DNA of 31,242 nucleotides from Alcaligenaceae bacterium. Its GTDB lineage: Bacteria; Pseudomonadota; Gammaproteobacteria; Burkholderiales; Burkholderiaceae_B. This document shows, piece after piece, positions 8,910-30,580 of the stretch. Positions within the stretch are counted from its first letter, which is position 1; every line of letters begins with the position of its first letter. The position numbers and the translations under genes were made by a program. Location: NCBI GenBank assembly GCA_947380655.1, contig CANCRX010000035.1, forward strand, positions 1 through 31,242, written 5' to 3'. The notes under the pieces are model-generated. The model was not told where the DNA came from and ran no database searches. It was given only the letters and a program-made list of their open reading frames with translations.

Positions 8910-8957
8910 GGATTGAAAATCCTTGTGTCGGTGGTTCGATTCCGCCCCGGGCCACCA
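8910..8957 (+). repeat. Direct repeat DR1: 3-prime 48 nt of tRNA-Phe(GAA) (anticodon loop TTGAAAA, variable loop, T arm, acceptor 3-prime strand, CCA); att-type site, not a functional tRNA
   Basis: GGATTGAAAATCCTTGTGTCGGTGGTTCGATTCCGCCCCGGGCCACCA closely parallels the E. coli tRNA-Phe 3-prime half. The upstream 8882-8909 has no complementary acceptor strand and no D arm. It is 47/48 identical to 30374-30421. Confidence 0.85.
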
Positions 8958-8963
8958 AATACA

Positions 8964-8991
8964 GAAGCCCAACCGTTCTCGGTTGGGCTTC
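8964..8991. terminator. Bidirectional-looking terminator hairpin between DR1 and the end of the nar operon
   Basis: GAAGCCCAACCG-TTCT-CGGTTGGGCTTC, followed by TTCTTTTGT on the plus strand. It lies 120 nt downstream of the ppiC-type gene on the minus strand. Confidence 0.7.
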
Positions 8992-9113
8992 TTCTTTTGT
9001 GCCATCCCCAGTGTTCGCGGGCTCGGCTCTACCCCATTATCGGGGGATGGGCAGTATGGGTCCGCGAATCATAGCCGACCCAGTTCCCCGCCCGTCATGA
9101 CTCGCTGAGTGCC

Positions 9114-9860
9114 TTACTGAACCAGCAGCCCGTTCTCGGCTTCAATATCCACGCCTTCAATCTTGGCGCGACTAACCAGCACCTTCAGATACTGCTGCGT
9201 CACACGATCCATGCTTGCTGCGTGCAAGGCATGAGCGATTTGCTGACGCACATGTTCAAACGGCAATAAGTTCCCTTCAATGCACTGATCGATTCTGACA
9301 ATATGAAAACCAAAGCGCGTTTGAACAAGACGATCCAGCACGCCGGGTTGCATGGTGGAAAAAAGCGCGCGATCAAACTCCGGCACGCTATCGCCGCGGG
9401 ACAACTGCCCTAACCCGCCCCCAAGCGCCGAAGAAGTGCAATTTGAAAACTCTTTGGCGAACTCGGCGAAACGTTCGGGTTGCGCTTGCACCAGCTTCAG
9501 GACTTCGATGGCCTTGTCCCTCAGACGATCGAGATTCACGTCAAGGGTGACCTGAAAGAGGATATGGCTCGCGCTGACCAGCGCCTCGACCTTAAAGCGC
9601 TCGGGGTTGGACTGATAGTGACGCAGACAATCCTCCTCTGTCGCGCTGGGGCAATGCACTTGCTGTTCAAGCAAGGCGGTGGCCGCCGCGTCGGGATGCG
9701 AAATATCAAAACCACAACGCTCGGCTTCATCCAGCACCACTCGCTGGATCACCAGCGCGCGTAACGCTTCGTCCATCGGACGGGCGGCTCGCTCATGATG
9801 ACGGATCTCTTCGTCGATCTGCGCATCGGTGATTTCAACGCTATTAACATGCACACTCAT
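9114..9860 (-). CDS. PpiC/parvulin-type peptidyl-prolyl cis-trans isomerase associated with the nar operon (248 aa)
   Basis: Parvulin signature ...SALGGGLGQLSRGDSVPEFDRALF...TRFGFHIVRI. It lies immediately downstream of narI, as in Pseudomonas-type nar operons. Confidence 0.85.
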   Translation of the reverse strand: MSVHVNSVEITDAQIDEEIRHHERAARPMDEALRALVIQRVVLDEAERCGFDISHPDAAATALLEQQVHCPSATEEDCLRHYQSNPERFKVEALVSASHILFQVTLDVNLDRLRDKAIEVLKLVQAQPERFAEFAKEFSNCTSSALGGGLGQLSRGDSVPEFDRALFSTMQPGVLDRLVQTRFGFHIVRIDQCIEGNLLPFEHVRQQIAHALHAASMDRVTQQYLKVLVSRAKIEGVDIEAENGLLVQ

Positions 9861-9873
9861 GAGATTCTCCTTC

Positions 9874-10557
9874 TTAGCGACGACGCACTAGTTGCCAGGG
9901 GCGGACAAGATAGGTCACTGAACCAAAGCCACTCCAGACATGTACCAAACGTGTGAAGGGGAAAATCAGGAACAGTGTCATACCCATAAACATATGAAAC
10001 TTGAAGAGCAAGGGTGCTTCAAGCATGAAGACTGACGCATCACCCTGAAAGGTCAGCAGGTGCTGGGCCCACATCATCAAGGTCACCATGACAGAGCCAT
10101 CGCTATGCTTGACCGACTGCGTAATGGTGGCAAGTCCCAGCAATAAGGCCCCCAGAATCCACAACAACAGAATCCTGTCGCCAATCGTGGTGACGGCTGA
10201 AATACGCGCGTTGGTAAAACGGCGATAGATCAGCAAAGACAAGCCTGCCAAACAGATAACACCCATGATGCCGCCGGCGACGACCGCGACCATTTGCTTG
10301 ACTTCATGCGAGACACCTAGCGCATGCCACACCCAAAGCGGCGTCAACAAACCAAACATATGACCGAAAAAGAGACCAAGTATCCCGATGTGAAAAAGGA
10401 TATTGCCCAGACGCAACTGACCGCGATAGAGCAACTGTGAAGAATCGCTCTTCCAGGTGTACTGCTCTCTTTCAAACCTCACCAGACTGCCGAGCAAAAA
10501 GATCGACAGCGCGATGTAGGGGTAGATTCCAAAAACGAAATGATTCAGATAACTCAT
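9874..10557 (-). CDS. narI: Respiratory nitrate reductase gamma subunit
   Basis: 227 aa with five predicted TM helices and conserved His residues (FHIGILGLFFGH). Positioned after narJ. Confidence 0.93.
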   Translation of the reverse strand: MSYLNHFVFGIYPYIALSIFLLGSLVRFEREQYTWKSDSSQLLYRGQLRLGNILFHIGILGLFFGHMFGLLTPLWVWHALGVSHEVKQMVAVVAGGIMGVICLAGLSLLIYRRFTNARISAVTTIGDRILLLWILGALLLGLATITQSVKHSDGSVMVTLMMWAQHLLTFQGDASVFMLEAPLLFKFHMFMGMTLFLIFPFTRLVHVWSGFGSVTYLVRPWQLVRRR

Positions 10558-10576
10558 GATGTGCTCCTGATCTGCA

Positions 10577-11245
10577 TCAACTATGCTTCAAAGACTGTCC
10601 TGCGCCACCGGGCATCGCAGGGCGTCGCGGAAAGAAGTGAATGGCCTGCGTGGTGGACGGTTTAAGCAAGGGCTCGACACCATCCTCTCCGGGGCCAAAG
10701 GTTTCCAGGGCCTCGTCCATGTCGCGCACGGGCGGCTCGGCAAAGGGCAAAGGAGTCACTTCGCAGCGGGCGCGGATGGCGTCAAAAATCACGGCATAAG
10801 GACTGCCGTTGAGTTTGAGTTTTTCACCGACCATCGCTAGCACATGAATCGCATCGCCCAGCAGCTGTTTGGCTTTGGCTTCAGGGATCTGCGCCAGAAA
10901 TTCCAAAAACAGGGGCACGTAGTCAGGCAATTCATCCGGCACCATGACAAAGCCGTTATCGCGGTATTCGGTCAGTAAATCCACCATCGCCTGACCACGA
11001 TCGCGACTTTCGCCGTGAATGTGTTCAAACAGATGCAAGCTATGTCTTTGGTTGCGATCAAACGTCGCGACATAGTTTTCCTGTAAACCGATCAGTGAGC
11101 CGCTTTCCAGATATTGCAGAATAGGCTCGACCTCTTTGGCCAGTGAGCCTTCTTGTTGAGCCAGCGCGCGGATCTCAGGCAGCGCCTCGAGCAAAGTTTG
11201 CTCGGGGTAACACAGCAAGGCTGAGAGTAATTTGAATGTATGCAT
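10577..11245 (-). CDS. narJ: Nitrate reductase molybdenum cofactor assembly chaperone (delta)
   Basis: 222 aa, acidic, with an LLCYPE N-terminal motif. Positioned between narH and narI. Confidence 0.9.
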   Translation of the reverse strand: MHTFKLLSALLCYPEQTLLEALPEIRALAQQEGSLAKEVEPILQYLESGSLIGLQENYVATFDRNQRHSLHLFEHIHGESRDRGQAMVDLLTEYRDNGFVMVPDELPDYVPLFLEFLAQIPEAKAKQLLGDAIHVLAMVGEKLKLNGSPYAVIFDAIRARCEVTPLPFAEPPVRDMDEALETFGPGEDGVEPLLKPSTTQAIHFFPRRPAMPGGAGQSLKHS

Positions 11246-11290
11246 CAGTATTCTCCGGCGGCGACTGCATCAGACAGTCGCCGCGTGGGT

Positions 11291-12844
11291 TCAGCTCGTT
11301 TCGGCACGGGCCTTACGGGACTTGGGCATATCGATAAAAATATCGCTCCCTTGTTTTTTCTTACCAAACAACGTTCCTTCCGAAGCACCACCGGAACAAC
11401 CGTTACCGAAAGTAAAGCCGCAGCTTCCCTTGTCGTTAAAGCTGTCTTCGACCAGTTCTTTATGGCTGGTGGGCACCACGAAACGATCTTCATAATTTGC
11501 AATCGCCATGATCTGGTACATGTCTTCAACCTCGGCAGGGGTCAAACCAACTTGTGCTAACACAGCCAGATCTTTTTCATCATGAACGGTTTTCGAACGC
11601 TTGTAGGCGCGCATGGCAAGCATGCGTTCCAGTGCGTGCACCACGGGGGCTTCTTTACCGGCAGTCAGCAAGTTGGCCAAGTAGCGCACGGGAATCCGCA
11701 GGCTCTTCACATCGGGAATGATGCCGTTCATGCCCATATGACCAGCTTCGGCTGCCGATTGAATGGGCGAAAGCGGTGGGATGTACCAGACCATCGGCAA
11801 GGTTCTGTACTCGGGATGCAAGGGGAAGGCAACCTTCCATTCGCACGCCATTTTGTAGACGGGCGACTTGCGGGCGGCTTCGAGCCAGCTTTCAGGAATC
11901 CCTTGCTTGCGCGCTTCAGCGATCACTTCTTCAGAGTTAGGATCCAGAAACACGTCCAGCTGACTTTGGTACAGATCCTGCTCGTTCGCAGTGGATGCCG
12001 CGCCTTCAATCATGTCCGCGTCGTACAGCATGACGCCCAGATAACGGATACGACCAACGCAGGTTTCTGAACATACTGTGGGCTGCCCTGCTTCGATACG
12101 CGGATAGCAGAAGGTGCATTTCTCGGCCTTGCCGCTTTGCCAGTTGTAATAAATCTTTTTGTAAGGGCAACCAGAAATACACATCCGCCAGCCGCGGCAC
12201 TTATCCTGATCAACCAGCACGATGCCATCGTCTTCACGCTTATAGATCGAACCCGAGGGGCAGCTCGCCACACAGGTCGGATTCAGACAGTGCTCGCACA
12301 GTCTGGGCAAATACATCATGAAGGTGCTTTCGAAGGTTGAATACATCTCCTTCTGAATCCCTTCAAACAAGGCGTCTTTGCTGCGAGCGTGAAACTCGCC
12401 ACCCAGATCGTCTTCCCAGTTGGGACCCCACTCGATCTTCTCCATCTTCTTGCCGGTAATCACCGATATCGGACGCGCAGTTGGTGGCGTCTGGCTCAAA
12501 GGCGCATTTTGCAAATGCTCGTAATCGTAAGTGAAGGGCTCGTAGTAATCATCAATCGCGGGCAGGTTCGGATTGGCGAAAATATTCGCCAGAATCCTCA
12601 GCTTGCTACCCTGTCTGGGTTCAAGCTTACCTGCCGCATTGCGCTGCCAGCCACCGAGCCACTTCTTCTGGTTCTCCCATTCTTTGGGATAACCAATCCC
12701 GGGCTTGGTTTCAACGTTATTAAACCAGGCGTACTCGACGCCATCGCGGCTAGTCCAGACGTTTTTGCAGGTAACCGAACAGGTATGGCAACCAATACAC
12801 TTGTCCAGATTCAGCACCATGCCAACTTGTGCGCGAATTTTCAT
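11291..12844 (-). CDS. narH: Respiratory nitrate reductase beta subunit (Fe-S)
   Basis: 517 aa with Cys clusters CIGCHTCSVTC, CEHCLNPTCVASCP and CRGWRMCISGCP. Its start overlaps the narG stop by 4 nt. Confidence 0.97.
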   Translation of the reverse strand: MKIRAQVGMVLNLDKCIGCHTCSVTCKNVWTSRDGVEYAWFNNVETKPGIGYPKEWENQKKWLGGWQRNAAGKLEPRQGSKLRILANIFANPNLPAIDDYYEPFTYDYEHLQNAPLSQTPPTARPISVITGKKMEKIEWGPNWEDDLGGEFHARSKDALFEGIQKEMYSTFESTFMMYLPRLCEHCLNPTCVASCPSGSIYKREDDGIVLVDQDKCRGWRMCISGCPYKKIYYNWQSGKAEKCTFCYPRIEAGQPTVCSETCVGRIRYLGVMLYDADMIEGAASTANEQDLYQSQLDVFLDPNSEEVIAEARKQGIPESWLEAARKSPVYKMACEWKVAFPLHPEYRTLPMVWYIPPLSPIQSAAEAGHMGMNGIIPDVKSLRIPVRYLANLLTAGKEAPVVHALERMLAMRAYKRSKTVHDEKDLAVLAQVGLTPAEVEDMYQIMAIANYEDRFVVPTSHKELVEDSFNDKGSCGFTFGNGCSGGASEGTLFGKKKQGSDIFIDMPKSRKARAETS

Positions 12845-15800
12845 TTTGCGACCTCTTCTTCCAGCTTGCCTTCAAGCCAATCCACTTTGTTCATCTTGCG
12901 CAGAATCACGAACTCATCCCGATTACTACCGACTGTGCCGTAATAATTGAAGCCCCAGGCCTGCTGCGCATAACCGCCGATCATGTGCGTCGGCTTGAGC
13001 ACCGTGCGTGTGACCGAGTTGTGGATACCGCCACGCATTCCGCTCATTTCGGATCCGGGTGTATTGATGATCTTTTCCTGAGCGTGGTACATCAGACAGG
13101 TGCCGTTTGGAATCCGCTGACTGACAACGACACGCGCCGTCAATGTGCCGTTCACGTTAAAGATTTCGACCCAGTCGTTATCCACCAATCCAGCGTGCTT
13201 GGCCTCGGTTTCGGAAATCCAGACGTGCGGCCCACCACGACTTAACGTCAGCATGCGCAAGTTGTCGGAATAGGTTGAGTGAATCCCCCACTTCTGGTGA
13301 GGCGTTAACCAGTTCAGCACAATCTCTTTATTGCCATTGGTCTTGACACCCAGCATCGGCTTGATGGTCTTGGTATCGATCGCAGGCTTGTACACGCACG
13401 AGCCTTCACCAAAGTCGAGCATCCAGCGATGATCCTGATAAAACTGCTGACGCCCGGTGAGCGTGCGCCACGGTATGAGCTCGTGCACGTTGGTATAGCC
13501 GGCGCTGTAGCTGACTTCTTCGCTTTCAAGCCCGGACCAGGTCGGTGCGGAAATAATCTTGCGCGGTTGCGCCTGGACATCGCGAAAGCGAATCTTGTCG
13601 TGCTCCCGCCCAAGGGCCAGATGGGTGTGGTCGCGACCCGTGATTTTTGACAAGGCTTCCCAGGCTTTAACTGAGACGTGTCCGTTTGTCTCAGGCGCGA
13701 AGGTCAGGATCATCTCTGCCGCATCGATGGCCGTATCCAGACGTGGGCGGCCTTTGCTGACACCTTCTTGCGTTACGGTCTTGGAGAGGCCTGCCAGCTC
13801 GTGCACTTCATGCTTGGTATCCCAGTTGATGCCTTTGCCGCCGTTGCCGAGTTTTTCCAGCAAAGGGCCGACCGAGGTGAACTTACGATAGATATCGTTG
13901 TAGTTACGTTCAACCACGGTCATGTTGGGCGCAGTCTTGCCCGGAATCAGGTCGCACTCGCCATGCTTCCAATCTTTGGGTTCAAGCGGTTGCCCCAGTT
14001 CTCCGGGGGTGTCGTGCAACAACGGTGTCAGCACGATATCTTTTCTTGTGCCGAGATAAGGACCGGCGATGTCGCTGAACTTCTTGGCGATCAGCTTATA
14101 AATTTCCCAATCTGTCTTGCTTTCCCACAAAGGCTGCACGGCTTCGCTCAAAGGATGAATGAAGGGGTGCATGTCGGACGTGTTCAGATCATCCTTTTCA
14201 TACCAGGTGGCGGTAGGCAGAACGATATCGCCATACAAGCAAGTCGTGCTCATACGGAAGTCCAGCACCGTGATGAGGTCAAGCTTGCCTTCGGCCGCCT
14301 CTTCGCGGAATTTCACTTCGCTTGGGCGAATCGCGTCGGCCTCATCGCCAAACATCGCGTTCTGAGTGCCCAAGAAGTACTTCAGGAAGTATTCGTGGCC
14401 TTTACCGCTTGACCCCAGAATATTCGAGCGCCAGACAAACATGTTGCGCGGGAAGTTGGCTGGATTGTCCGGATCGTCGCAGCTCATGTTCAGACTACCG
14501 TTCTTGAGCATTTCAGCGGCATAAGCGACAGGATCCTTACCCTGCGCGACTGCAGCGTCCACGACATCCAGTGGGTTGGTCTGAAGCTGAGGCGCCGAAG
14601 GCAACCAGCCCATGCGCTCGGACTTGGCGTTCAAGTCCAGCATGCTCATGTTGGCGTACTTGCTTGTGTCGGCTGTCGGCGCAAGAATCTCGTCAACGTG
14701 CAGCTTTTCATGTCGCCACTGGCTTGTGTGCGCATAGAAGAAGCTGGTGCCATTCATCTGACGGGGAGGACGCGACCAGTCTAGGCCAAAGGCCAGGGGA
14801 GCCCAGCCAAACTGGGGACGCAGTTTTTCTTGTCCGACGTAGTGCGCCCAGCCACCACCACTCTTGCCGACGCAACCACACATCATCAGCAGGTTGATGA
14901 TACCGCGATAGGTCATGTCCATGTGATACCAGTGATTCAGCGCTGCGCCGACGATGATCATCGACTTGCCCTGCGTGTCGTGCGCATTCTGTGCGAATTC
15001 GCGCGCAACCTGAATCACCAGCTTGCGTGGCACGGTTGTATGCTTTTCTTGCCAGGCGGGTGTGTAAGGCACATCATCGTCAAAACTGTTTGCGACATTG
15101 CCGCCACCCAAGCCTCGATCGACACCATAGTTGGCCATCTGTAAGTCATAGACGGTAGTCACAAGCGCGCTTGCGCCGTCCGCCATTGTGACGCGCTTGA
15201 CCGGCACGTTGCGCACCAGCAGCTCTTCGTGCTCGCCACCAAAGTAGGGGAAGCTCACGCCGACCACTTCGTGATCCTGATCGACCATGCTCAGCACGGG
15301 ATCAACTTCTTGACCTGAAGCGGCATCTTTCTTTTCGAGGTTCCAGCGTCCGACTTGTTTACCGTCGTTAACAGCGCCTTCGCCCCAACGCAATCCAATT
15401 GTGCCGTTCGGGACAACCAGATTGCCGGTATTGCGATCGATTAAGAGTGTCTTCCAATCAGGATTATTGGTTTCGCCATGATTGTTCGACAGATGCGAAG
15501 CGCGCAAGAAATGATCCGGCACCAGACCGCCATTGTGCTCACGCAACTTCACCAGCATCGGCATATCAGTGTATTGCTTGGCATAGTCACGGAAATAAGC
15601 CGACTTGCCGCTCAGGTGAAACTCTTTCAGGATCACGTGACCCATGGCCATCGCAAGCGCGGCATCCGTGCCCTGCTTAGGCGCCAACCAGATATCGCCA
15701 AACTTGACCATTTCGCCAAAGTCGCTCGATACAGCAACGGTTTTGGTGCCCTTGTAACGGACTTCGGTATAAAAGTGCGCATCTGGCGTACGTGTCTGCG

Positions 15801-16569: not shown

Positions 16570-16615
16570 TATGACTCTCCAAAGCGTCGCGCCAGGCGAC
16601 CACTAATCTCTTTAC

Positions 16616-18010: not shown

Positions 18011-18013
18011 CTC

Positions 18014-20157: not shown

Positions 20158-20256
20158 GCCTTGAAAGTCTCTTCTAAAATCATGCAGCCCCCGATGAACG
20201 CAATATCAGGCGATAATGAAATTCTTAGCGATTCAAATATTGCACAGGGTCAACGC

Positions 20257-22185: not shown

Positions 22186-22187
22186 TC

Positions 22188-23531: not shown

Positions 23532-23535
23532 CGTC

Positions 23536-24246: not shown

Positions 24247-24253
24247 CAGATAT

Positions 24254-24457
24254 TCACAATACGATATCCACTGTTGGCAGGCATGCTTCTTCAAAAAATA
24301 AGCGCTCTTTGAACTCGCCTTTCTTGCCGATATTGAACGAACTGACTGGACGGTGATAACCCATCACTCGTGTCCATACTTCACAGCGGGTGCGGCGACT
24401 TTCATCTAGTGTTGCGATGGTCACATTTTGATATTCGGTCTTATTTAAATCATTCAT
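24254..24457 (-). CDS. Stand-alone class III RNR glycyl-radical domain protein (67 aa)
   Basis: RCEVWTRVMGYHRPVSSFNIGKKGEFKER contains the RVxGY glycyl-radical loop. AGGAG (24465-24469) lies 7 nt upstream of ATG 24457. The frame differs from nrdD. Confidence 0.75.
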   Translation of the reverse strand: MNDLNKTEYQNVTIATLDESRRTRCEVWTRVMGYHRPVSSFNIGKKGEFKERLFFEEACLPTVDIVL

Positions 24458-24477
24458 GAGCTGACTCCTGATCAATT

Positions 24478-26214
24478 TCAAACTAGGGCTGCGGTGTCTT
24501 GTAACTGTTCGGCTATTAAGGCCGCATCGCATTTAGGACAAAACTCGTGATGTCCAGATAAATAACCATGCGTTGGACAAATGGAAAAGGTAGGCGTGAC
24601 GGTGATGTAGGGAAGCCGGAAATTGGATAATGCGCGTCGGACAAGTTGTTTGCAGGCGTTCGCCGACGAAATCGCTTCATTCATGTACAGATGCAGCACC
24701 GTGCCGCCCGTATATTTCGATTGCAAGGTTTCTTGCAAGGTCAGTGCCTCAAAAGGATCATCCGTATAGTTGACCGGCAACTGGCTGGAGTTGGTGTAAT
24801 ACGGCTCCGCGTCGCTACCCGCCTGCAGAATGTCAGGCCAGCGTTTTTTGTCTTCACGGGCGAAACGATAGGTTGTCCCTTCGGCCGGAGTCGCCTCCAG
24901 GTTGTACATATGCCCTGTCTGCTCCTGAAACTGCGTCATCTGACTACGCACATGATCAAGCATTCTTTCGGCCATCGCCTGACCCTGCGGACTGGTGATA
25001 TCAAAACGATCATGCGTGAAATTTCGGATCATCTCGTTCAATCCATTCACTCCAAGCGTACTGAAATGATTTCTTAAGGTTCTCAAATAGCGCTTGGTGT
25101 AAGGGTACAGCCCTTTATCAATGTATTTCTGCACGACCGTTCTTTTCACTTCCAGTACATCGCGTCCCAAAACAAGCAGCTCTGTCAGGCGCTTGAGTAA
25201 ACCCGCTTCATCCCCAGCAAACAAATAACCCAAGCGCGCGCAATTGATCGTCACCACGCCGATGCTGCCGGTTTGTTCGGCGGAACCAAACAAACCATTG
25301 CCTCTTTTAAGCAGTTCGCGTAAATCCAGTTGAAGTCTGCAGCACATGGATCTGACCATGTGAGGCTGCAAATCCGAATTCAGAAAATTCTGGAAATAAG
25401 GCAAACCGTATTTGGCGGTCATTTCAAACAAACGCTCCGCATTCGGGTGATCCCAGTCAAAGTCAGGCGTGATGTTGTAGGTCGGAATCGGAAAGGTAAA
25501 CGCGCGCCCATGCGCATCGCCGCGCATCATGACTTCGATATAGGCGCGATTAATCATGTCCATTTCGTCTTGCAGCTCGCCATAACTGAAAGGCATTTCC
25601 TCGCCACCGATATACGGAATCTGTTCACGCAAATCCTGTGGACACGTCCAATCAAAAGTTAGATTGGTAAACGGTGTTTGCGTCCCCCACCGGCTAGGCA
25701 CATTCAGGTTGTAGACCATCTCCTGCAGACACTGCCTGACTTGCTCGTAGCGCATCTGGTCCTTGCGGATAAAAGGCGCCAGATAGGTATCGAACGAGCT
25801 AAACGCTTGTGCGCCCGCCCATTCGTTTTGAAGCGTCCCGAGAAAGTTCACGATCTGACCGACCGCGGCCGACAGATGCTTGGCGGGTGTTGCTTCAACC
25901 TTGCCCGGTACACCATTAAAACCTTCGTTCAACAACTGACGCAGTGACCAGCCTGCGCAATAACCTGCCAGCATATCGAGATCATGGATATGAAGATCAC
26001 CCTCTCGATGCGCCAGCCCGGCTTCAGGCGTAAAGACATGAGACAACCAGTAGTTTGCCGTGACCTTGCCCGCCACGTTCAAGATCAACCCACCCAGGCT
26101 GTAGCCTTGATTCGCATTGGCTTGAATGCGCCAGTCCCGCAAATCCAGATACTCATCCATCGCATGTTCGACATCAACGAATGTCTGTTTCGCAGTCTCT
26201 GAATGGCTTTGCAT
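24478..26214 (-). CDS. nrdD: Anaerobic (class III) ribonucleoside-triphosphate reductase large protein, lacking the glycyl-radical C-terminus (578 aa)
   Basis: NrdD-like sequence throughout, ending with the zinc-ribbon-like ICPTHGY...FCPKCD. GAGGTG lies 5 nt upstream of ATG 26214. The track start at 26253 is less likely. Confidence 0.9.
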   Translation of the reverse strand: MQSHSETAKQTFVDVEHAMDEYLDLRDWRIQANANQGYSLGGLILNVAGKVTANYWLSHVFTPEAGLAHREGDLHIHDLDMLAGYCAGWSLRQLLNEGFNGVPGKVEATPAKHLSAAVGQIVNFLGTLQNEWAGAQAFSSFDTYLAPFIRKDQMRYEQVRQCLQEMVYNLNVPSRWGTQTPFTNLTFDWTCPQDLREQIPYIGGEEMPFSYGELQDEMDMINRAYIEVMMRGDAHGRAFTFPIPTYNITPDFDWDHPNAERLFEMTAKYGLPYFQNFLNSDLQPHMVRSMCCRLQLDLRELLKRGNGLFGSAEQTGSIGVVTINCARLGYLFAGDEAGLLKRLTELLVLGRDVLEVKRTVVQKYIDKGLYPYTKRYLRTLRNHFSTLGVNGLNEMIRNFTHDRFDITSPQGQAMAERMLDHVRSQMTQFQEQTGHMYNLEATPAEGTTYRFAREDKKRWPDILQAGSDAEPYYTNSSQLPVNYTDDPFEALTLQETLQSKYTGGTVLHLYMNEAISSANACKQLVRRALSNFRLPYITVTPTFSICPTHGYLSGHHEFCPKCDAALIAEQLQDTAALV

Positions 26215-26300
26215 AAAACACCTCATCTTGTGTTGTTTGATTAACTCTATCACCAGATGTTGTGTTTTATTCTTTTCAAACCACTCTTTTTTTAAAATGC

Positions 26301-26314
26301 TTGATACCGGTCAA
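26301..26314. promoter_or_regulatory. FNR/ANR/Dnr-type box upstream of nrdD
   Basis: TTGATACCGGTCAA matches TTGAT-N4-ATCAA at 9/10 positions. Its centre lies about 93 nt upstream of the nrdD ATG, compatible with a class II promoter plus a leader of roughly 50 nt. Confidence 0.6.
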
Positions 26315-26337
26315 GCATGCAAGCGCGGCGCAACGAT

Positions 26338-26852
26338 TTAGGTCTGTTTTGCGCCACGCCGCTGCGCCATGCGCGTACCGATTTCTTGCAGGGTGTGCGG
26401 CTCAAGCAACTCAATGAAAGGATAAATTTCCGCTTCTTCGCAGTCCGCATGTTGCGGATAGGCTTGAATGAATTGCTTCAGCGTGTCTGGGGGCGAGGCT
26501 GCTTTTTTTTTTCGATCTGTTCAAGCCACTGCCGCACGTCGGCCCACAGGCTGGCCAGTTCTGTGTGTTCATCCTGCAAGCGGTGGATCGCCGCTGCGAG
26601 CACCTTTTTCTGATCACCTTGAAAGGCATCCTCGCTTAAGGCCAATAATGCGGGATACACATCCAAGTCTTCATCATCATGATGCAGCGGTGCTGCGATA
26701 TTGAAATACCGCAACACCTTTTGCGCCGCTTGCGCTGCGACATCATCCGCACCGTGCTGAGCGATATGCGCATGCAACTTATCAGTCAGGAGCGCAAAGC
26801 GCCTGACCTTTTCATGGCATAGCGTCAAAATCTCAACTGGAAGATCAAACAT
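26338..26852 (-). pseudogene. Hemerythrin-like (HHE cation-binding) gene interrupted by a frameshift in an A10 tract, or recoded
   Basis: The zero frame (124 aa) stops at 26478. The -1 frame after the A10 run (T10 at 26503-26512 on the plus strand) continues ...AASPPDTLKQFIQAYPQHADCEEAEIYPFIELLEPHTLQEIGTRMAQRRGAKQT to TAA at 26338-26340. This supplies the missing C-terminal His/Glu motif. Confidence 0.75.
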
Positions 26853-27537
26853 GTTGCTCAGAAATCTGCTTATCTTTCTCTTGAAAGAGAATGTTGTTTT
26901 CCAGATGGATATGCTGCATCAGGTCTTCTCTTAATTGGCTCAAACCAGCATACAACGCGCGCCAGGTATTGCATGCTTCAGCAGGCGGCGTGATGTCATT
27001 GGTCAGATATTCAAGACGCTCTAACGCTTCACCATGCTGATCGTGTTCAAACCGCATCATCGACACGGGAGCAGACACCTCAGAAGGCGATACGCGTCTG
27101 AGCATCGGAAACAACACTTGCTCTTCTTTCATCATATGGCTCTCAAGCTCTTGCTGCATATCGGCCAAATGATCGGCCAGACCAAGAGGACATGAGGGAC
27201 GATCGCCGTGCACCTGCTCCACTCTGCGTGCCAGTCGGATCAACTCGGGCAATTGCTCGCGATGCACTTCATGATAACGATGCAAAATATGATCGATCAA
27301 CGTATCAACCGGGACCTGACGCCAATCCTGATACGACGCGTTGCTCAATGCAGTCAGGCTTGAAAGCGCCTCTAAAAGCGGCAGGGGATCTTCCACCTTA
27401 CGGCGTTCAAGCGCCTCGCGCAGGCTTTTGCCGCCACCACAACAAAAATCCAGTTTGTATTGATGAAACACGCGCGTCGCGCCGGGAATTTCGCAAGCGA
27501 TGGAGCCAATCGTACGGTCAAGTAATTGTGTGCTCAT
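26845..27537 (-). CDS. ytfE: Iron-sulfur cluster repair di-iron protein (RIC/ScdA/YtfE family)
   Basis: 230 aa with the ScdA_N motif KLDFCCGGGKSL followed by hemerythrin-like His/Glu motifs. It overlaps the downstream hemerythrin gene start by 8 nt. Confidence 0.92.
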   Translation of the reverse strand: MSTQLLDRTIGSIACEIPGATRVFHQYKLDFCCGGGKSLREALERRKVEDPLPLLEALSSLTALSNASYQDWRQVPVDTLIDHILHRYHEVHREQLPELIRLARRVEQVHGDRPSCPLGLADHLADMQQELESHMMKEEQVLFPMLRRVSPSEVSAPVSMMRFEHDQHGEALERLEYLTNDITPPAEACNTWRALYAGLSQLREDLMQHIHLENNILFQEKDKQISEQHV

Positions 27538-27591
27538 GATGTGTTCCTTATTGACTTTGAAGAGGCACTTTCGTGCAGACCTCTAAACCAT

Positions 27592-27607
27592 TGCAATTAC
27601 CATGCCA
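27592..27607 (-). promoter_or_regulatory. Sigma-54 (-24/-12) promoter for the ytfE-hemerythrin operon
   Basis: The minus strand reads TGGCAT-GGTAA-TTGCA, against the consensus TGGCAC-N5-TTGCW. It lies about 55 nt upstream of ATG 27537. Confidence 0.8.
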
Positions 27608-27612
27608 ACAAT

Positions 27613-27625
27613 TAATTGATTGATT
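27613..27625 (-). promoter_or_regulatory. Possible IHF site
   Basis: The minus strand reads AATCAATCAATTA, which fits WATCAANNNNTTR. It lies between the NorR boxes and the sigma-54 promoter but rather close to the -24 element. Confidence 0.3.
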
Positions 27626-27647
27626 TTAAAGACTTATACCTTTACAA

Positions 27648-27706
27648 GGTATAAAATACCCTTTAATTAATTGTATTTTTTACCCTCATAAAGAGTATTT
27701 TTAACC
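27648..27706. promoter_or_regulatory. Three NorR-type GT-N7-AC enhancer boxes
   Basis: GGTATAAAATACC (27648-27660), GTATTTTTTACC (27673-27684) and GTATTTTTAACC (27695-27706). They are spaced 22-25 bp apart in the norR/ytfE divergent region. Confidence 0.75.
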
Positions 27707-27720
27707 ATCCCATTTTCCTA

Positions 27721-29307
27721 ATGATCATGCGACCAGGTGTTGAAGTTTCGATTGTCGCGGATCTGATTGCCGATCTGCCGCACGCCATCCGCGCCCAGCG
27801 ACTGGTCAACAGCATCCGTGAGTTTTTCGCCTGCGATGCTGTCGGACTTTTAAAAATCGACGGCGATAGCCTGACACCCGTCGCAATGCAAGGTCTCGCT
27901 CTTGAAGCGCTGGGGCGACGCTTTCTGATTGCTCAGCATGCGCGCCTGGCAAGCATTCTGTCCACGCGTGTCCCGGTCCGCTTTCTACCCGGCAATCCAC
28001 TGCCTGATCCCTATGATGGCTTGCTTGAACATCACGCGGACGAAGTGTTGCCGGTTCATGATTGCATGGGTATTAGTCTGTATCTTGAAGGGCAACTCTG
28101 GGGAGCCTTAACACTTGATGCCTTTGGCGGCAAAACCTTTAAAGAGTCCGATTTGGGCAAGCTGTCTTCCTTCGCCCTGCTCGTTCAGGCCGCTGTGCGC
28201 GTTTCTCAACTTGAGCAGGACAACCGTCATTTGCGCTTGCTGCGCGGCAATGAAAGCCCAATGCCTTTTATCGCACAGAAGCAAATGGAAATCGTTGGAC
28301 AAAGTCTCGTCCTGCAAAATCTGTTAAAAGAGCTCGATGTAGTCGCCGAGTCGGATCTGCCTGTTTTATTACTTGGTGAAACAGGTGTCGGCAAAGAACT
28401 GTTCGCGCAACGTATTCATCTGTCTTCGCCCCACCGTCAGGGCGCGCTGATCAAGGTCAACTGTGCGGCACTGCCGGAATCGCTCGCTGAAAGCGAATTA
28501 TTCGGTCACGTTAAAGGCGCGTTTTCCGGCGCAACAACAGACCGTACAGGTCGCATTGAAGCCGCGCAGAATGGCACGCTATTTCTAGATGAAGTGGGAG
28601 ATCTGCCACTCAGTATTCAGGCAAAACTGTTACGCACGCTACAGAACGGAGAAATCCAGAGACTAGGTGAAGACAAGTCCCGTCGGGTCAGCACCCGCAT
28701 TATTTCCGCCACTAACAGGCAACTGCAGGAGCAAGTTCGCAATGGCAGTTTCAGGGCCGATCTCTATCATCGGCTATCGGTCTATCCGGTTCATATTCCT
28801 CCCTTACGCGAGCGCGGCAGTGACATTCTGATTCTGGCGGGCCGTTTTCTTGAACTCAACCGGGCAAGGCTGGGCATGCGAAGCTTGCGCTTGTCCGAAC
28901 CCGCAGAGCGTGCGCTTTGCGCGTTTTCCTGGCCAGGCAATGTCCGTGAACTTGAACATGTCATGAGTCGAGCGGCGCTTCGTTGCTTAAGCTTAGGCGC
29001 CAATCGAAATGACATCATTACGATCGAGCCGGGCTTGCTGGCACTGGAAACGTTTGATGTAGCACCACACGAACACAACGCATCAAGTTCGCAAGATCCT
29101 TCAGGTCCCAACGCACACCGCTCTGCCGAAAACAATGCACCAGAACAAGTAGAGCAATCTTTGAGACAGGCAACAGAATTTTTTCAGCGTAAACAAATCC
29201 GCGCGCGTCTCGAACAACTCAACGGAAACTGGGCAGCCTGCGCGCGCAGCCTGGGGCTGGACACCAGCAATCTGCACAAGCTCGCTAAAAAACTCGGGCT
29301 GAAGTGA
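27721..29307 (+). CDS. norR: NO-responsive sigma-54-dependent transcriptional activator (GAF + AAA+ + Fis-type HTH)
   Basis: 528 aa with an N-terminal GAF-like domain, Walker A GETGVGKE, a GAFSGA (GAFTGA-like) loop and the C-terminal HTH ARSLGLDTSNLHKLAKKLGL. It is divergent from a sigma-54 promoter with NorR boxes. Confidence 0.9.
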   Translation: MIMRPGVEVSIVADLIADLPHAIRAQRLVNSIREFFACDAVGLLKIDGDSLTPVAMQGLALEALGRRFLIAQHARLASILSTRVPVRFLPGNPLPDPYDGLLEHHADEVLPVHDCMGISLYLEGQLWGALTLDAFGGKTFKESDLGKLSSFALLVQAAVRVSQLEQDNRHLRLLRGNESPMPFIAQKQMEIVGQSLVLQNLLKELDVVAESDLPVLLLGETGVGKELFAQRIHLSSPHRQGALIKVNCAALPESLAESELFGHVKGAFSGATTDRTGRIEAAQNGTLFLDEVGDLPLSIQAKLLRTLQNGEIQRLGEDKSRRVSTRIISATNRQLQEQVRNGSFRADLYHRLSVYPVHIPPLRERGSDILILAGRFLELNRARLGMRSLRLSEPAERALCAFSWPGNVRELEHVMSRAALRCLSLGANRNDIITIEPGLLALETFDVAPHEHNASSSQDPSGPNAHRSAENNAPEQVEQSLRQATEFFQRKQIRARLEQLNGNWAACARSLGLDTSNLHKLAKKLGLK

Positions 29308-29332
29308 TTTCTGCTGAAGTCGCGTCTGCTTA

Positions 29333-29520
29333 AGTAATGTCAGCCGAACCAAAGAGATGGCCACTCTTGAGAGCCTTGGTTCTTAGGTAACCCTGATTAT
29401 GCTGATTCGACGCGAACACATGTGGCAAGCGCTCGGCCACCTCAATGCCGTGACGGGCAGATAGCTGCGCTCGACCGTATCGAAGCCAGCATCCTGCAAA
29501 CGATAGCCGCCCACGTGTTC
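29333..29520 (-). pseudogene. ribA: Decayed fragment of GTP cyclohydrolase II (ribA): two frames, internal deletion, no N-terminus
   Basis: The frame at 29461-29520 reads EHVGGYRLQDAGFDTVERSY (compare E. coli RAYALQDQGYDTVEAN). The frame at 29333-29458 reads ARHGIEVAERLPHVFASNQHNQGYLRTKALKSGHLFG (compare [34 protein letters not shown]). About 40 codons are missing between them, and there are stops upstream. Confidence 0.6.
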
Positions 29521-29691
29521 CTAAGCGTGTGCTTGGACTAATCATAGCGAGATGCGAATAATTGAAAAACGAGGATTGTGCGGAAATCAGCGTGATAACT
29601 ACCATTCGCTTTAAATCGCTCATTAGATGCAGGTAAAGCCATGTACTATCCACGCCTGAGGAAGCGAGTTTATATATAACTTCAGCTTCCA

Positions 29692-29746
29692 CCACCATCT
29701 GAAACCTGAAAACCCCTGCGTTGATGCGCTGGGGTTTTTGCTTTTG
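29692..29746 (+). repeat. Left copy of a CCACCA-TCTGA-terminator module (includes a terminator hairpin at 29709-29738 plus a T-tract)
   Basis: ccaccatctgaaacctgaaaacccctgcgttgatgcgctggggtttttgcttttg aligns with 30416-30524 apart from an insertion of about 55 nt in the latter. An identical 21-mer, gcgctggggtttttgcttttg, occurs at 29726-29746 and 30504-30524. Confidence 0.8.
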
Positions 29747-29848
29747 TGGGTCTGTAACTGGATGTTTCTTTTCATGATTGCGATGGTTTGTACTAAAAAT
29801 CCACCTTCTGTATACTTGTACAATTTACAAGACAACTTCGAGTCAATC

Positions 29849-30106
29849 ATGCGGGTAATTAATTTTTCCGACGCCAGAAACCAATTTAAACAAGTCATTG
29901 ATCAAGTCGTGGCTGATTGCGACGTGGCAATTATTTCTCGTAGAGATGCTGAGGATGCAGTTGTCATGTCTCTAGATACCTACAACAGCATGATGGAAAC
30001 ATTGCACTTGATGAAATCTCCCGCGAACGTCAAACATCTGGAGAAATCATTAGCCCAGTACCGTAAGGGGCAAATTAAGGAAAAGGCTTTGGTAGATGCT
30101 AAGTGA
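29849..30106 (+). CDS. yefM: Phd/YefM-family antitoxin (85 aa)
   Basis: MRVINFSDARNQFKQVIDQVVADCDVAIISRRDAEDAVVMSLDTYNSMMETLHL is typical of YefM. The internal ATG 29849 is preferred over the track start at 29738. It overlaps the toxin gene by 11 nt. Confidence 0.9.
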   Translation: MRVINFSDARNQFKQVIDQVVADCDVAIISRRDAEDAVVMSLDTYNSMMETLHLMKSPANVKHLEKSLAQYRKGQIKEKALVDAK

Positions 30107-30359
30107 GCTCGTATGGACCAATGCAGCATGGTCTGATTATGTTTATTGGCAAGGTCAGGATAAGAAAACGCTCAAACGCATCAATCTATTGATCAAAGAA
30201 ACCATGCGCTCGCCTGAAGACGGCATAGGTAAGCCTGAAGCATTGAAAGAAAATCTATCTGGTTTATGGTCTAGACGCATAGATGATGTTAATCGTTTAG
30301 TCTATGCAATCGAAAAAGATCAATTAGTCGTTATCGCTTGTCGCTATCACTACGAGTAA
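30096..30359 (+). CDS. yoeB: YoeB/Txe-family mRNA interferase toxin (87 aa)
   Basis: Strong resemblance to E. coli YoeB (WSDYVYWQ...KRINLLIKE...GKPEALKENLSGLWSRRIDDVNRLVYAI...ACRYHY). Confidence 0.92.
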   Translation: MLSELVWTNAAWSDYVYWQGQDKKTLKRINLLIKETMRSPEDGIGKPEALKENLSGLWSRRIDDVNRLVYAIEKDQLVVIACRYHYE

Positions 30360-30373
30360 TCTATGTGCGATTA

Positions 30374-30421
30374 GGATTGAAAATCCTTGTGTCGGTGGTT
30401 CGATTACGCCCCGGGCCACCA
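30374..30421 (+). repeat. Direct repeat DR2: second copy of the tRNA-Phe 3-prime 48 nt (one mismatch, in the T stem)
   Basis: Identical to 8910-8957 except A at 30406 versus C at 8942, which would break a T-stem pair. The upstream sequence is the yoeB stop region, not a tRNA 5-prime half. Confidence 0.85.
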
Positions 30422-30449
30422 TCTGATTTCCTAAAAACCCTAGCGTTCT

Positions 30450-30499: not shown

Positions 30500-30580
30500 A
30501 TTCGCGCTGGGGTTTTTGCTTTTGATATTACGCATCTAGATGCGGGACGCCATCGAAATTGGGTAATCTCATCAAAGAGT

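What the first reader, a model, noticed from the sequence alone, without database searches (positions are those of the whole stretch)
8910..30421. A complete nitrate-respiration / anaerobic-survival gene set bracketed by 48-nt direct repeats of the tRNA-Phe 3-prime half, with no integrase inside
Seen in sequence: 8910-8957 and 30374-30421 are 47/48 identical, in the same orientation, and begin at exactly the same nucleotide of the tRNA-Phe anticodon stem. Neither copy is joined to a tRNA 5-prime half. Between them lie 21.4 kb of functionally coherent genes:
- ppiC-type isomerase, narIJHG, narK2 and narK1
- carbonic anhydrase, narX and narL
- a Dnr-like regulator
- class III RNR
- a hemerythrin gene, ytfE and norR
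- a yefM-yoeB addiction module at the right edge
There is no recombinase or transfer gene inside. The DNA left of DR1 is a different, orphan-gene island that ends at the same att sequence. Hand counts on a few 60-nt lines gave about 42-43 percent GC in both flanks and about 52 percent inside. These are not proper statistics. Established knowledge: islands that target tRNA 3-prime ends leave such repeats. Tandem accretion can produce att-flanked, integrase-less elements (CIMEs) that are mobilised in trans. Inference: the ability to respire nitrate and to cope with anoxia and NO may be a single transferable cassette here.
Basis: partly seen in the sequence, partly recalled or inferred. Interest (0 to 1): 0.75.

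Follow-up and report, generated by a model that had tools for sequence, protein, structure and literature searches.

The report
Movable nitrate-respiration block at tRNA-Phe hotspot
A 20.7-kb gene block for nitrate respiration and anaerobic survival is a strain-variable insertion just after a tRNA-Phe gene in a freshwater Sheuella-like bacterium, but the two 48-nt repeats that seemed to frame it belong to two neighbouring insertions, so this is an ordinary though well-documented genomic-island hotspot.

Summary
In detail: 8910-8957 and 30374-30421 are 47/48 identical tRNA-Phe 3' halves. The gene list is correct and there is no recombinase between the repeats.

The repeats are not a matched pair for the nar block:
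- DR2 is the displaced tRNA end of the 676-nt yefM-yoeB module. Nar-less relatives carry hemA-tRNA-Phe-TA-DR2-flank.
- DR1 is the right scar of the left island, which has its own short tyrosine recombinase.

The nar block is 8958-29697.
- It starts right after the tRNA's CCA and ends in a conserved non-coding segment, which I call X, that also ends in CCACCA.
- Its core (9056-29458) matches an ordinary chromosomal locus of other Sheuella-type genomes at 87-90% identity. It still carries the last 42 codons of the neighbouring ribA.
- It is present or absent between MAGs whose flanks are 99.95-100% identical.
- It is 99.7% identical in a contig whose core genes are only 79% identical.

The GC argument is inverted. 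The block (0.53) matches core genes (0.50-0.52), and the flanks are the low-GC accessory DNA.

Verdict: a transferable, integrase-less nar module in a stack of elements at a tRNA gene. This is a known kind. How it moves is unresolved.

The parts
1..8909 (.). Right part of 'island A', a separate low-GC integrative island of orphan genes; its left end lies outside the window
   Evidence: GC is 0.457. The same island (99.05% over 7352 nt) sits next to a tRNA-Phe remnant in a nar-less context in L024/L026. It is absent in L016 and L032, where the intact tRNA abuts nar. L001 extends it about 2.2 kb further left without reaching a tRNA.
4834..5502 (-). Short (222 aa) tyrosine recombinase of island A, consisting of the catalytic domain only
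   Evidence: Pfam Phage_integrase 1.3e-30, covering positions 2-170 of 172. PHROG integrase 4.7e-43. It is 61% identical to the 191-aa integrase next to another 46-48-nt tRNA-Phe remnant in L014. By eye, the alignment shows RVGE, HSxRR, GHRS and QAY motifs.
8910..8957 (+). DR1: the 3' 48 nt of tRNA-Phe, from the anticodon stem to CCA. It is the right scar (attR) of island A and at the same time the left border of the nar block.
   Evidence: In L016 and L032 the same position holds the intact tRNA-Phe followed by the same downstream sequence.
8958..9055 (+). Y: the left end of the nar module. It holds a 13-bp hairpin plus T-run (8963-8992) that would terminate the tRNA-Phe transcript. It is not part of the native nar locus.
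   Evidence: Fold energy -16.4 kcal/mol, z = -8.6. Homology to the native-context locus starts only at 9056. An 88% similar copy (Y') follows the intact tRNA-Phe in L070.
9056..29458 (.). Core of the nar/anaerobic block, colinear with an ordinary chromosomal locus of other Sheuella-type genomes
   Evidence: 87-90% identity to L062, L066, L067 and L069, and 80.7% to S. amnicola L044, where no tRNA lies alongside.
9114..9860 (-). PpiC/NifM-like peptidyl-prolyl isomerase
9874..16569 (-). narI (9874-10557), narJ (10577-11245), narH (11291-12844) and narG (12841-16569): respiratory nitrate reductase
   Evidence: NCBIfam equivalog models, all above their cut-offs: NarG 2119.6 bits, NarH 956.8, NarJ 122.4, NarI 244.6.
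16616..19276 (-). narK2 (16616-18004) and narK1 (18014-19276): nitrate/nitrite transporters
   Evidence: gene calls
19441..22838 (+). Carbonic anhydrase (19441-20157), narX (20257-22185) and narL (22188-22838)
22788..26214 (-). Crp/Fnr (Dnr-like) regulator (22788-23531), nrdG (23536-24246), and nrdD in two ORFs (24254-24457, 67 aa; 24478-26214, 578 aa)
26478..27537 (-). Hemerythrin (26478-26852, truncated to 124 aa) and ytfE/RIC (26845-27537)
27538..27720 (-). ytfE promoter region with a sigma-54-type -24/-12 element (TGGCATGGTAATTGCA) and GT-N7-AC NorR-type boxes
   Evidence: Read by eye; the consensus sequences are from my own knowledge.
27721..29307 (+). norR (GAF domain plus sigma-54 activator)
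29330..29458 (-). ribA' : the last 42 codons of a GTP cyclohydrolase II gene, left over from the block's original chromosomal neighbourhood
   Evidence: 39/42 aa identical to the C-terminus of the 365-aa gene convergent with norR in L066. DNA homology ends at 29458.
29459..29697 (+). X: the conserved non-coding right end of the nar module. It holds an 11-bp imperfect hairpin with a 7-nt AT loop (29660-29690) followed by ACCACCA. The CCACCA at 29692-29697 is the junction.
   Evidence: It is absent from the native locus. It is also present immediately left of nar in L034 (95.8% over 191 nt), L036 (98%) and L033 (80.7% over 161 nt, downstream of a LysR gene). Five different sequences follow its CCACCA. 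Hairpin fold z = -4.4. No Rfam family matches.
29698..30373 (+). TA mini-module: tRNA trailer and terminator (29698-29746), yefM (29849-30106) and yoeB (30096-30359)
   Evidence: In L008, L010, L071 and L072 this sequence follows an intact tRNA-Phe directly. Pfam hits.
30374..30421 (+). DR2: the displaced 3' 48 nt of tRNA-Phe, carrying a T-stem mutation. It is the right scar of the TA module.
   Evidence: It is present with the same A mismatch in nar-less L008 and L010, downstream of tRNA-TA.
30422..31242 (+). Older tRNA trailer (30422-30524, interrupted by a 52-nt palindrome at 30449-30500) and the start of the low-GC right flank (DUF1254/DUF1214 gene from 30738)
   Evidence: (I5). L005 shows that the flank continues with further small cassettes, each ended by a 23-24-nt tRNA-Phe remnant.

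Best explanation
The interval is not one element. It is the middle of a stack of independently acquired modules downstream of the tRNA-Phe gene that lies next to hemA in a freshwater Sheuella-like bacterium (Alcaligenaceae).

Order of arrival, oldest on the right:
1. The yefM-yoeB mini-module. Its insertion displaced the old tRNA 3' end, which is now DR2.
2. The 20.7-kb nar/anaerobic module (8958-29697). It was inserted exactly at the tRNA's 3' CCA.
3. Island A, which has its own short tyrosine recombinase. Its integration at the anticodon-loop region left DR1 and moved the intact tRNA off the left end of the window.

The nar module is a 20.4-kb piece of ordinary chromosome. It was cut from a ribA | norR...ppiC locus of a related genome and still carries the last 42 codons of ribA. 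It sits between a 98-nt tRNA-terminator end (Y) and a roughly 200-240-nt non-coding end (X) that finishes with a hairpin and CCACCA.

What the module encodes:
- nitrate respiration (NarGHJI, NarK1/K2, NarXL, a Dnr-type regulator);
- anaerobic dNTP synthesis (NrdDG);
- an NO-stress response (NorR driving a sigma-54 ytfE-hemerythrin operon).

It has no recombinase, so it must be moved in trans. Two routes are possible, and both are inferred, not shown:
- an unidentified recombinase acting where the CCACCA of X meets the CCACCA of the tRNA;
- homologous recombination through the conserved tRNA and neighbouring modules after DNA uptake.
For: Shown by tool results:
- DR2 belongs to the TA module. 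L008, L010, L071 and L072 have intact tRNA-Phe, then the trailer, then yefM-yoeB (L071/L072 end about 140 nt into the trailer). L008 and L010 continue through DR2 into the same flank, with no nar.
- DR1 belongs to island A. L016 and L032 have hemA, intact tRNA-Phe, Y and nar with no island. L024 and L026 have island A plus the same remnant next to unrelated DNA.
- The nar-less L008 is 100% identical to the nar-carrying L016 over 2323 nt on the hemA side, and 100% identical to the window over 1551 nt starting at 29692.
- The hemA contig of a nar-plus MAG is 99.95% identical to that of a nar-minus MAG.
- The two forms differ by an insertion flanked by CCACCA on each side.
- The right end ...CTTCCACCACCA is constant, while five different sequences follow it.
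- X also ends two other cargo segments, one with a LysR gene and one whose last ORF looks like a porin C-terminus by eye.
- The native locus has no tRNA, X or Y. Homology is limited to 9056-29458, and the ribA fragment is 39/42 aa identical.
- L032's core is 79.1% identical to L008's, but its nar is 99.7% identical to the window's. In GCA_974441935.1, nar is 95-97% identical while the TA module and flank are 82-87%.
- In a nar-plus MAG, the intact tRNA-Phe next to hemA is followed by a Y-like terminator and new DNA.
Against: - No recombinase that acts at X-CCACCA was found. No circular junction, and no tandem junction of the block's own X with its own Y, was seen in the 76 sequences held (the window and 75 fetched loci) or in the JGI metagenome scan.
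- The identity at the nar junction is only 6 nt. Microhomology-mediated insertion or deletion therefore cannot be separated from site-specific recombination.
- All evidence comes from short-read metagenome contigs and MAGs.
- L032's junction shares a 105-nt identical stretch (tRNA plus 29 nt upstream) with the other species. A chimeric join is not excluded.
- The left end of island A and its physical link to L070 were not reached.
- The block's GC equals that of the core, so composition gives no independent support for transfer.
Confidence: 0.7

Rival explanations
1. One reading: DR1 and DR2 are the attL and attR of a single cis-mobilizable element containing nar plus TA. A tRNA-Phe-specific integrase would excise and integrate it as one unit.
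For: Both repeats are 48 nt, start at the same base and lie in direct orientation. A recombinase of the type that leaves 45-48-nt scars sits next door in island A. In principle it could recombine any two such sites.
Against: - The nar-less genomes keep TA and DR2 (L008, L010; in L071/L072 the MAG's TA-DR2 contigs L005/L006 overlap the hemA-tRNA contig end). The polymorphism therefore ends at 29697, not at DR2.
- L050 has nar without the TA module.
- L016 has nar with an intact tRNA in place of DR1.
- No contig joins island A or DR1 to the 30422+ trailer.
Confidence: 0.07
2. No site-specific step operates today. After a one-off illegitimate insertion, the nar block spreads among strains and species only by ordinary homologous recombination. 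The identical tRNA-Phe would serve as the left anchor and the shared trailer and TA module as the right anchor, after transformation, transduction or conjugation.
For: - The flanks are 100% identical between nar-plus and nar-minus genomes.
- The tRNA plus 29 nt upstream is identical even between species that are 79% identical.
- Trailer variants look recombined between copies; L007 carries a trailer-2-like sequence after X.
- No integrase is present, and there is only 6 nt of junction identity.
Against: - X-CCACCA recurs as the right end of at least three different cargo segments.
- X-CCACCA is followed by five different sequences, always exactly after CCACCA. That precision is more typical of site-specific joining.
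- Each module brings its own tRNA terminator.
Confidence: 0.2
3. The nar block is ancestral at the tRNA-Phe locus in this lineage. The nar-less genomes would be recent deletions between the two CCACCA hexamers, and there has been no horizontal transfer.
For: The block's GC matches the core. nar sits at this locus in several related lineages. A 6-nt direct repeat is enough for a microhomology deletion.
Against: - The ribA fragment and the X and Y ends show that this location is secondary. The native locus elsewhere lacks a tRNA.
- nar is 99.7% identical against 79% identity for the core.
- S. amnicola and the L062/L066 lineage carry the block at the other locus.
- Loss may still explain individual nar-less strains.
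Confidence: 0.1
4. Assembly or binning artefact: the contig is a chimera joined at the repeated tRNA fragments.
For: The data are short-read metagenome assemblies. Many contigs break exactly at the tRNA or at CCACCA.
Against: The same junctions recur in independent assemblies and MAGs: island A|DR1 in 11 sequences, tRNA end|Y in 13, and X|trailer in 5. The window's contig is reproduced at 100% (L004) and 99.7% (L012). The X|trailer junction has only 6 nt of repeat.
Confidence: 0.03

Closest known systems
Tandem ssrA genomic islands of Dehalococcoides that carry respiration genes (vcr-GI and rdhA islands; PMC3146451)
   Same: - Several islands are stacked downstream of one small-RNA gene, each bounded by a direct repeat of its 3' end.
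- The cargo is a respiratory function.
- Many of the islands lack an integration module, and the authors proposed that these are cis-mobilizable.
- The islands are strain-variable.
   Different: - There the repeat is a uniform 20 bp and a serine recombinase (DsiB) is identified. Here at least three junction types coexist (45-48 nt, 22-24 nt, and X-CCACCA).
- No recombinase is identified for the nar module.
- Here the cargo is demonstrably a relocated piece of chromosome.
CIMEs and tandem accretion (ICESt1-related elements of Streptococcus thermophilus; reviewed in PMC5704250)
   Same: The segment lacks an integrase, lies between att-type junctions next to an element that has a recombinase, and was built by successive integrations at one target gene.
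   Different: - A CIME is defined as a decayed ICE or IME that keeps functional attL and attR of the same system. Here the two 48-nt sites come from two other modules.
- The nar module's own ends share only CCACCA with the target.
- No decayed conjugation or integration genes remain, and no excision has been shown.
tRNA-gene integration sublocations: anticodon-loop, T-loop and 3'-end classes (Williams 2002, Nucleic Acids Res 30:866; from my own knowledge, the paper was not retrievable)
   Same: DR1 and DR2 start in the anticodon stem because anticodon-loop integrases leave an identity block of about 45-48 nt. The 22-24-nt remnants in the right flank fit the T-loop class. The CCACCA junction fits a 3'-end class.
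   Different: The 3'-end-type junction here has no associated integrase. It also has a roughly 190-nt portable arm (X) that I could not match to any described family.
Transferable nitrate-respiration and denitrification clusters: the Thermus thermophilus NCE (from my own knowledge) and denitrification genes on predicted genomic islands in Pseudomonas (PMC10494350)
   Same: nar and denitrification genes behave as accessory, horizontally moved units.
   Different: The NCE is conjugative. The Pseudomonas islands are software predictions without mapped junctions. Here the junctions, the empty sites and the chromosomal source locus are all mapped, and no transfer genes are present.

Membership tests
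tRNA-linked, integrase-mediated genomic island | Inserted at the 3' end of a tRNA gene | tested here: met
   In L016 and L032 the intact tRNA-Phe is followed directly by the block's left end. In the window that position is DR1.
tRNA-linked, integrase-mediated genomic island | Bounded by a cognate pair of direct repeats of the tRNA 3' end | tested here: not met
   DR1 and DR2 belong to island A and to the TA module. The block's own ends share only the 6-nt CCACCA with the tRNA.
tRNA-linked, integrase-mediated genomic island | Encodes its own integrase | tested here: not met
   No recombinase domain in any ORF from 8958 to 29697.
tRNA-linked, integrase-mediated genomic island | Present or absent among close relatives, with a precise empty site | tested here: met
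   L008, L071 and L072 (nar-less) against L016, the window and L004 (nar-carrying), with flanks 99.95-100% identical.
tRNA-linked, integrase-mediated genomic island | Composition differs from the host core | tested here: not met
   Block GC 0.527 against core genes 0.50-0.52. The flanks are the low-GC DNA.
CIME (cis-mobilizable element) | No integration or transfer genes | tested here: met
CIME (cis-mobilizable element) | Retains functional attL and attR of one recombination system | tested here: inconclusive
   The junctions are precise and recurrent (X-CCACCA and tRNA-CCACCA). However, the recombinase is unknown and function cannot be tested.
CIME (cis-mobilizable element) | Derived by decay of an ICE or IME | tested here: inconclusive
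   Only the X and Y ends are non-chromosomal. There are no relic mobility genes. The cargo is a relocated chromosomal segment with a ribA scar.
CIME (cis-mobilizable element) | Excises or transfers together with an adjacent functional element | not testable with these tools
   No circle or composite junction appears in the held contigs. Testing this needs read-level data or an experiment.
Respiratory nitrate reductase Nar system | narG, narH, narJ and narI score above the curated equivalog cut-offs | tested here: met
   TIGR01580 2119.6 bits (cut-off 1084), TIGR01660 956.8 (524), TIGR00684 122.4 (59), TIGR00351 244.6 (106).
YefM-YoeB type II toxin-antitoxin | An adjacent antitoxin and toxin pair carrying the family domains | tested here: met
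   PhdYeFM_antitox 1.9e-20 and YoeB_toxin 6.1e-37, in overlapping ORFs.

The most novel reading that the evidence does not exclude
X may be the portable attachment arm of an undescribed class of integrase-less cargo modules. X is about 190 nt, ends in an acceptor/T-arm-like minihelix plus CCACCA, and has no Rfam, plasmid or phage match. Three such modules are seen: the nar block, a LysR module and a module whose last ORF looks like a porin. On this reading they are joined to, and swapped at, the 3' CCA end of tRNA-Phe by a recombinase encoded elsewhere. That would make an integron-like cassette system able to relocate 20-kb chromosomal operon blocks.
Probability: 0.15. Interest if true: 0.65.

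Novelty: new member of a known kind. Interest (0 to 1): 0.42.

Why it matters
- Whether these uncultured freshwater Alcaligenaceae can respire nitrate and survive anoxia and NO stress is decided by one 20.7-kb insertion. The insertion differs between strains that are otherwise near-identical at this locus, and appears to have crossed a species boundary.
- Metagenomic inference of 'who reduces nitrate' therefore cannot be made at species level for this group.
- It is also a clean worked example of three things. A whole chromosomal regulon can be relocated into a tRNA hotspot. Repeats that frame a segment need not belong to it. A GC contrast can point to the wrong side of a boundary.

Tried and rejected
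- X as a known RNA: Rfam gave no hit at gathering threshold for the whole window and only sub-threshold noise for 29250-29800. ARAGORN found no tRNA or tmRNA. RNAalifold on four X copies showed one compensatory pair, which is too little divergence to judge.
- A recombinase for the X-CCACCA junction:
  - The gene after X in L039/L040 is a TOTE conflict-system primase-helicase, a defence gene. Its other contexts are TA and defence arrays with no integrase.
  - Relatives of the LysR gene next to X2 lack X.
  - An nhmmer profile of X found no further copies in the held loci.
- X elsewhere: the JGI metagenome scan gave one hit (L050), IMG/VR none, and PLSDB and the phage collection none.
- A plasmid-borne copy of the block: PLSDB holds only about 77% narGH homology, in Ralstonia megaplasmids.
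- Homology-facilitated illegitimate recombination from a donor in which tRNA-Phe natively precedes nar: rejected as stated, because the native locus has no tRNA.
- Island A as a defence island or prophage: PADLOC gave only a weak TRIP13 P-loop hit, and PHROGs gave only the integrase, an AAA protein and an unknown family.
- Extending island A to its left end: L001 adds 2.2 kb of orphan genes and a possible C5-methylase fragment, but no tRNA.

Full report
**1. Observation**

The two repeats exist as described. Positions 8910-8957 and 30374-30421 are 47/48 identical and lie in the same orientation. None of 100 shuffles gave a match. They are the 3' 48 nt of a tRNA-Phe(GAA), running from the third base pair of the anticodon stem to CCA. 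ARAGORN finds no intact tRNA in the window.

The gene content between the repeats is as listed:
- a PpiC/NifM-like isomerase;
- narIJHG, with all four NCBIfam equivalog models far above their cut-offs;
- narK2 and narK1;
- a carbonic anhydrase;
- narX and narL;
- a Crp/Dnr-type regulator;
- nrdG and nrdD;
- a hemerythrin and ytfE;
- norR;
- yefM-yoeB.

No ORF between the repeats has a recombinase or transfer domain. GC is 0.527 inside and 0.41-0.46 outside.

- a third tRNA-end remnant, CCACCA at 29692-29697, followed by a second copy of the tRNA trailer and terminator (29698-29746; repeat families D8 and D12);
- a gene fragment at 29330-29458;
- a 222-aa tyrosine recombinase in the left island (4834-5502, minus strand).

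**2. Whose repeats are they?**

Exact-protein look-ups retrieved many independent contigs of the same and related populations.

*DR2.*
- L008 (MAG GCA_947374515.1) and L010 carry an intact tRNA-Phe followed directly by the sequence of window 29698 onward: trailer, yefM-yoeB, then DR2 with the same A mismatch, then the same right flank.
- L071 and L072 (two further MAGs) show hemA, intact tRNA-Phe and about 140 nt of the same trailer before the contig ends. Contigs L005 and L006 of the same MAGs start at CCACCA and continue through yefM-yoeB and DR2.
- DR2 is therefore the displaced tRNA end of the 676-nt TA module.

*DR1.*
- In L016 and L032 the position of DR1 is occupied by an intact tRNA-Phe next to hemA. 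It is followed by exactly the window's 8958+ sequence and then ppiC-nar.
- In L024 and L026 the left island (99% identical over 7.35 kb) ends in the same remnant but abuts unrelated DNA.
- DR1 is therefore the right scar of island A.

*Island A's recombinase.*
- It is 61% identical to a 191-aa recombinase that sits about 110 nt from a 46-48-nt tRNA-Phe remnant in a different small element, L014.
That is what anticodon-loop-type integrases produce (Williams 2002, from my own knowledge; the paper was not retrievable).

**3. The real nar module**

Comparing the empty form (L008) with the filled forms (L016, window) defines the insertion as 8958-29697:

...GGGCCACCA|AATACAG ... CTTCCACCACCA|TCTGAAACC...

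CCACCA is the only repeat at the two ends.

*Left end, which I call Y (8958-9055).* Y is a strong hairpin plus T-run placed to terminate the tRNA transcript.

*Right end, which I call X (about 29459/29499-29697).* X is non-coding and conserved. It ends in an 11-bp imperfect hairpin with a 7-nt AT loop, followed by ACCACCA.
- The sequence up to CCACCA is constant in the window, L038, L039, L040 and L050.
- What follows it differs:
  - the TA trailer;
  - a trailer without the TA module (L050);
  - a TOTE defence gene island (L039/L040);
  - the nar left end itself (L033);
  - a variant nar left end (L034/L036).
- X is also found immediately left of nar in L034 (95.8% over 191 nt), L036 (98%) and L033 (80.7% over 161 nt). 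There it follows other cargo: an ORF ending that looks like a porin C-terminus by eye, and a LysR gene.
- X-CCACCA is therefore a recurrent right end of several modules.

**4. Origin of the cargo**

The same gene set, in the same order from norR to ppiC, lies in an ordinary chromosomal context with no tRNA in the 10-kb flanks. This is seen on the ppiC side in Sheuella amnicola NBD-18 (L044) and on both sides in L062, L063, L066, L067 and L069. In L062-L069 the order is ribA (convergent), norR ... ppiC, a 191-aa ORF, then benE.
- Homology with the window runs only from 9056 to 29458, at 87-90% identity. X and Y are absent from that locus.
- Window 29330-29458 (minus strand) encodes the last 42 residues of that ribA, 39/42 identical.
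- The block was therefore cut out of such a locus, with one breakpoint inside ribA, and now sits between Y and X. That it was cut out is shown. How is not.

**5. Polymorphism and transfer**

- L008 (nar-less) is 100% identical to L016 (nar-carrying) over 2323 nt on the hemA side. It is 100% identical to the window over 1551 nt on the TA side.
- At MAG level, GCA_947374055.1 holds a contig 100% identical to the window's right 11 kb. Its hemA-tRNA-Phe contig (L070) is 99.95% identical to L008. There the tRNA is followed by a Y-like terminator (88% to Y) and new DNA, probably island A's left end.
- Three MAGs have the empty arrangement.
- Many contigs break exactly at the tRNA or at CCACCA. I read this as co-existing variants.
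- L032's core (tctC to hemA, colinear) is only 79.1% identical to L008's, although HemA is 97% identical at protein level. Its nar region is 99.7% identical to the window's over 7.4 kb.
- In GCA_974441935.1, nar is 95-97% identical while the adjacent TA module and flank are 82-87%.
- Caveat: the two species share 105 identical nt at the L032 junction, so a chimeric join cannot be excluded. L033 gives a second non-window context for the 99.85% allele.

**6. Composition**

Core genes beside the locus have GC 0.50-0.52 (L008, L032). The native-locus flanks have 0.53, and the nar block has 0.527. The low-GC DNA is island A (0.457), the TA module (0.413) and the right flank (0.42-0.44).

**7. How it works**

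*Function.* This is inferred from family membership.
- NarGHJI with NarK1/K2 gives nitrate respiration under control of NarXL and a Dnr-type regulator.
- NrdDG supplies dNTPs anaerobically.
- NorR faces a ytfE-hemerythrin operon. By eye, its upstream region has a sigma-54 -24/-12 element (TGGCATGGTAATTGCA) and GT-N7-AC boxes. That would give NO-responsive repair of Fe-S clusters.

*Mobility.* Shown: the junctions are precise and recurrent, empty sites exist, and no recombinase is inside. Inferred: the block is moved in trans, by one of two routes.
- An unidentified recombinase exchanges strands at or near CCACCA, with X and Y acting as attP arms.
- Homologous recombination runs through the tRNA and the neighbouring modules after DNA uptake.

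I could not decide between these.

*Order of arrival.* New elements enter at the intact tRNA, so the order is TA module, then nar, then island A. This is consistent with L008, L016 and the window.

**8. Comparison with known systems**

- The closest described case is the stack of ssrA islands in Dehalococcoides. These carry respiration genes, and some lack an integration module and were proposed to be cis-mobilizable (PMC3146451).
- Accretion and CIMEs are defined in PMC5704250. The nar module meets 'no integrase' and 'precise empty site'. It does not meet 'cognate tRNA-derived repeat pair' or 'atypical composition'. Its att function is untested. I therefore describe it as CIME-like rather than as a CIME.
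- Denitrification genes on predicted genomic islands are already reported (PMC10494350), and gain or loss of gene clusters at a tRNA gene has been described in another Alcaligenaceae genus (PMC11046850).

**9. Verdict**

This is a new, well-resolved member of a known kind: tandem genomic islands at a tRNA gene carrying a respiratory module. The open and potentially novel element is X-CCACCA as a portable end with no known recombinase.

**10. Limits**

All the data are short-read metagenome contigs and MAGs. The left end of island A was not reached.

Noticed in passing
window 24254-26214 (minus strand): nrdD is in two ORFs: 578 aa, and a separate 67-aa ORF that carries the C-terminal RVMGY glycyl-radical motif (read by eye) and has its own AGGAG ribosome-binding site 8 nt upstream. 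The split is the same in all relatives, including the 87-90% identical native-context loci, so it looks like a stable architecture and not a recent frameshift.
   Followed up: partly
window 26478-26852 (minus strand): The hemerythrin gene downstream of ytfE is 124 aa here but 171 aa in L038 and in the native-context loci. The window allele has lost the C-terminal part (93% identical over the first 121 residues), which suggests decay of one cargo gene.
   Followed up: partly
window 781-806, 1492-1517, 2057-2082, 4811-4836, 7042-7067 and about 30580-30596: A family of short palindromes (TGTCCTTTCGAAAGGACA-like) lies in intergenic positions of island A and of the right flank, but none lies in the nar block. 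This suggests that the low-GC modules share an origin or a terminator type.
   Followed up: no
window 30449-30500: A 52-nt near-perfect palindrome (23-nt arms, 91% complementary) interrupts the terminator of the older tRNA trailer. The homologous trailers in L005, L007 and L050 lack it, so it looks like a miniature insertion.
   Followed up: partly
L005 3471-4972 (right flank beyond the window): The flank continues as an array of one- or two-gene cassettes (a ParE toxin-antitoxin pair, then two glyoxalase-family genes). Each is closed by a 23-24-nt tRNA-Phe 3' remnant preceded by a shared ATCCTCAGCCCC-like motif and followed by a trailer/terminator copy. This is a T-loop-type scar series, distinct from the 48-nt type.
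   Followed up: partly
L014 11161-13566: A different small element occupies the tRNA-Phe site in another strain. It has a 191-aa tyrosine recombinase, a weak match just below the Pfam cut-off to an inovirus-type replication initiator (REP_ORF2-G2P) and a DUF6641 protein. It may be an integrated rolling-circle replicon. Between it and nar lies a 218-nt spacer plus a 45-nt tRNA remnant, left by an earlier event.
   Followed up: partly
L039 11972-14791 and L040: In another lineage the sequence immediately after X-CCACCA is a TOTE conflict-system primase-helicase gene. It is preceded by a terminator hairpin similar to the nar left end. Defence genes therefore use the same junction.
   Followed up: partly
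L010 1-1256: An intact tRNA-Phe followed by the TA module has a completely different upstream region (a 298-aa orphan gene) from the hemA context. This implies an element that carries a full tRNA-Phe copy, or a rearrangement at the tRNA.
   Followed up: no
window 27538-27720: The norR-ytfE intergenic region has, by eye, a sigma-54-type promoter and at least two GT-N7-AC boxes facing ytfE. NorR here probably controls ytfE-hemerythrin and not a norVW or hmp gene, neither of which is present in the block.
   Followed up: partly
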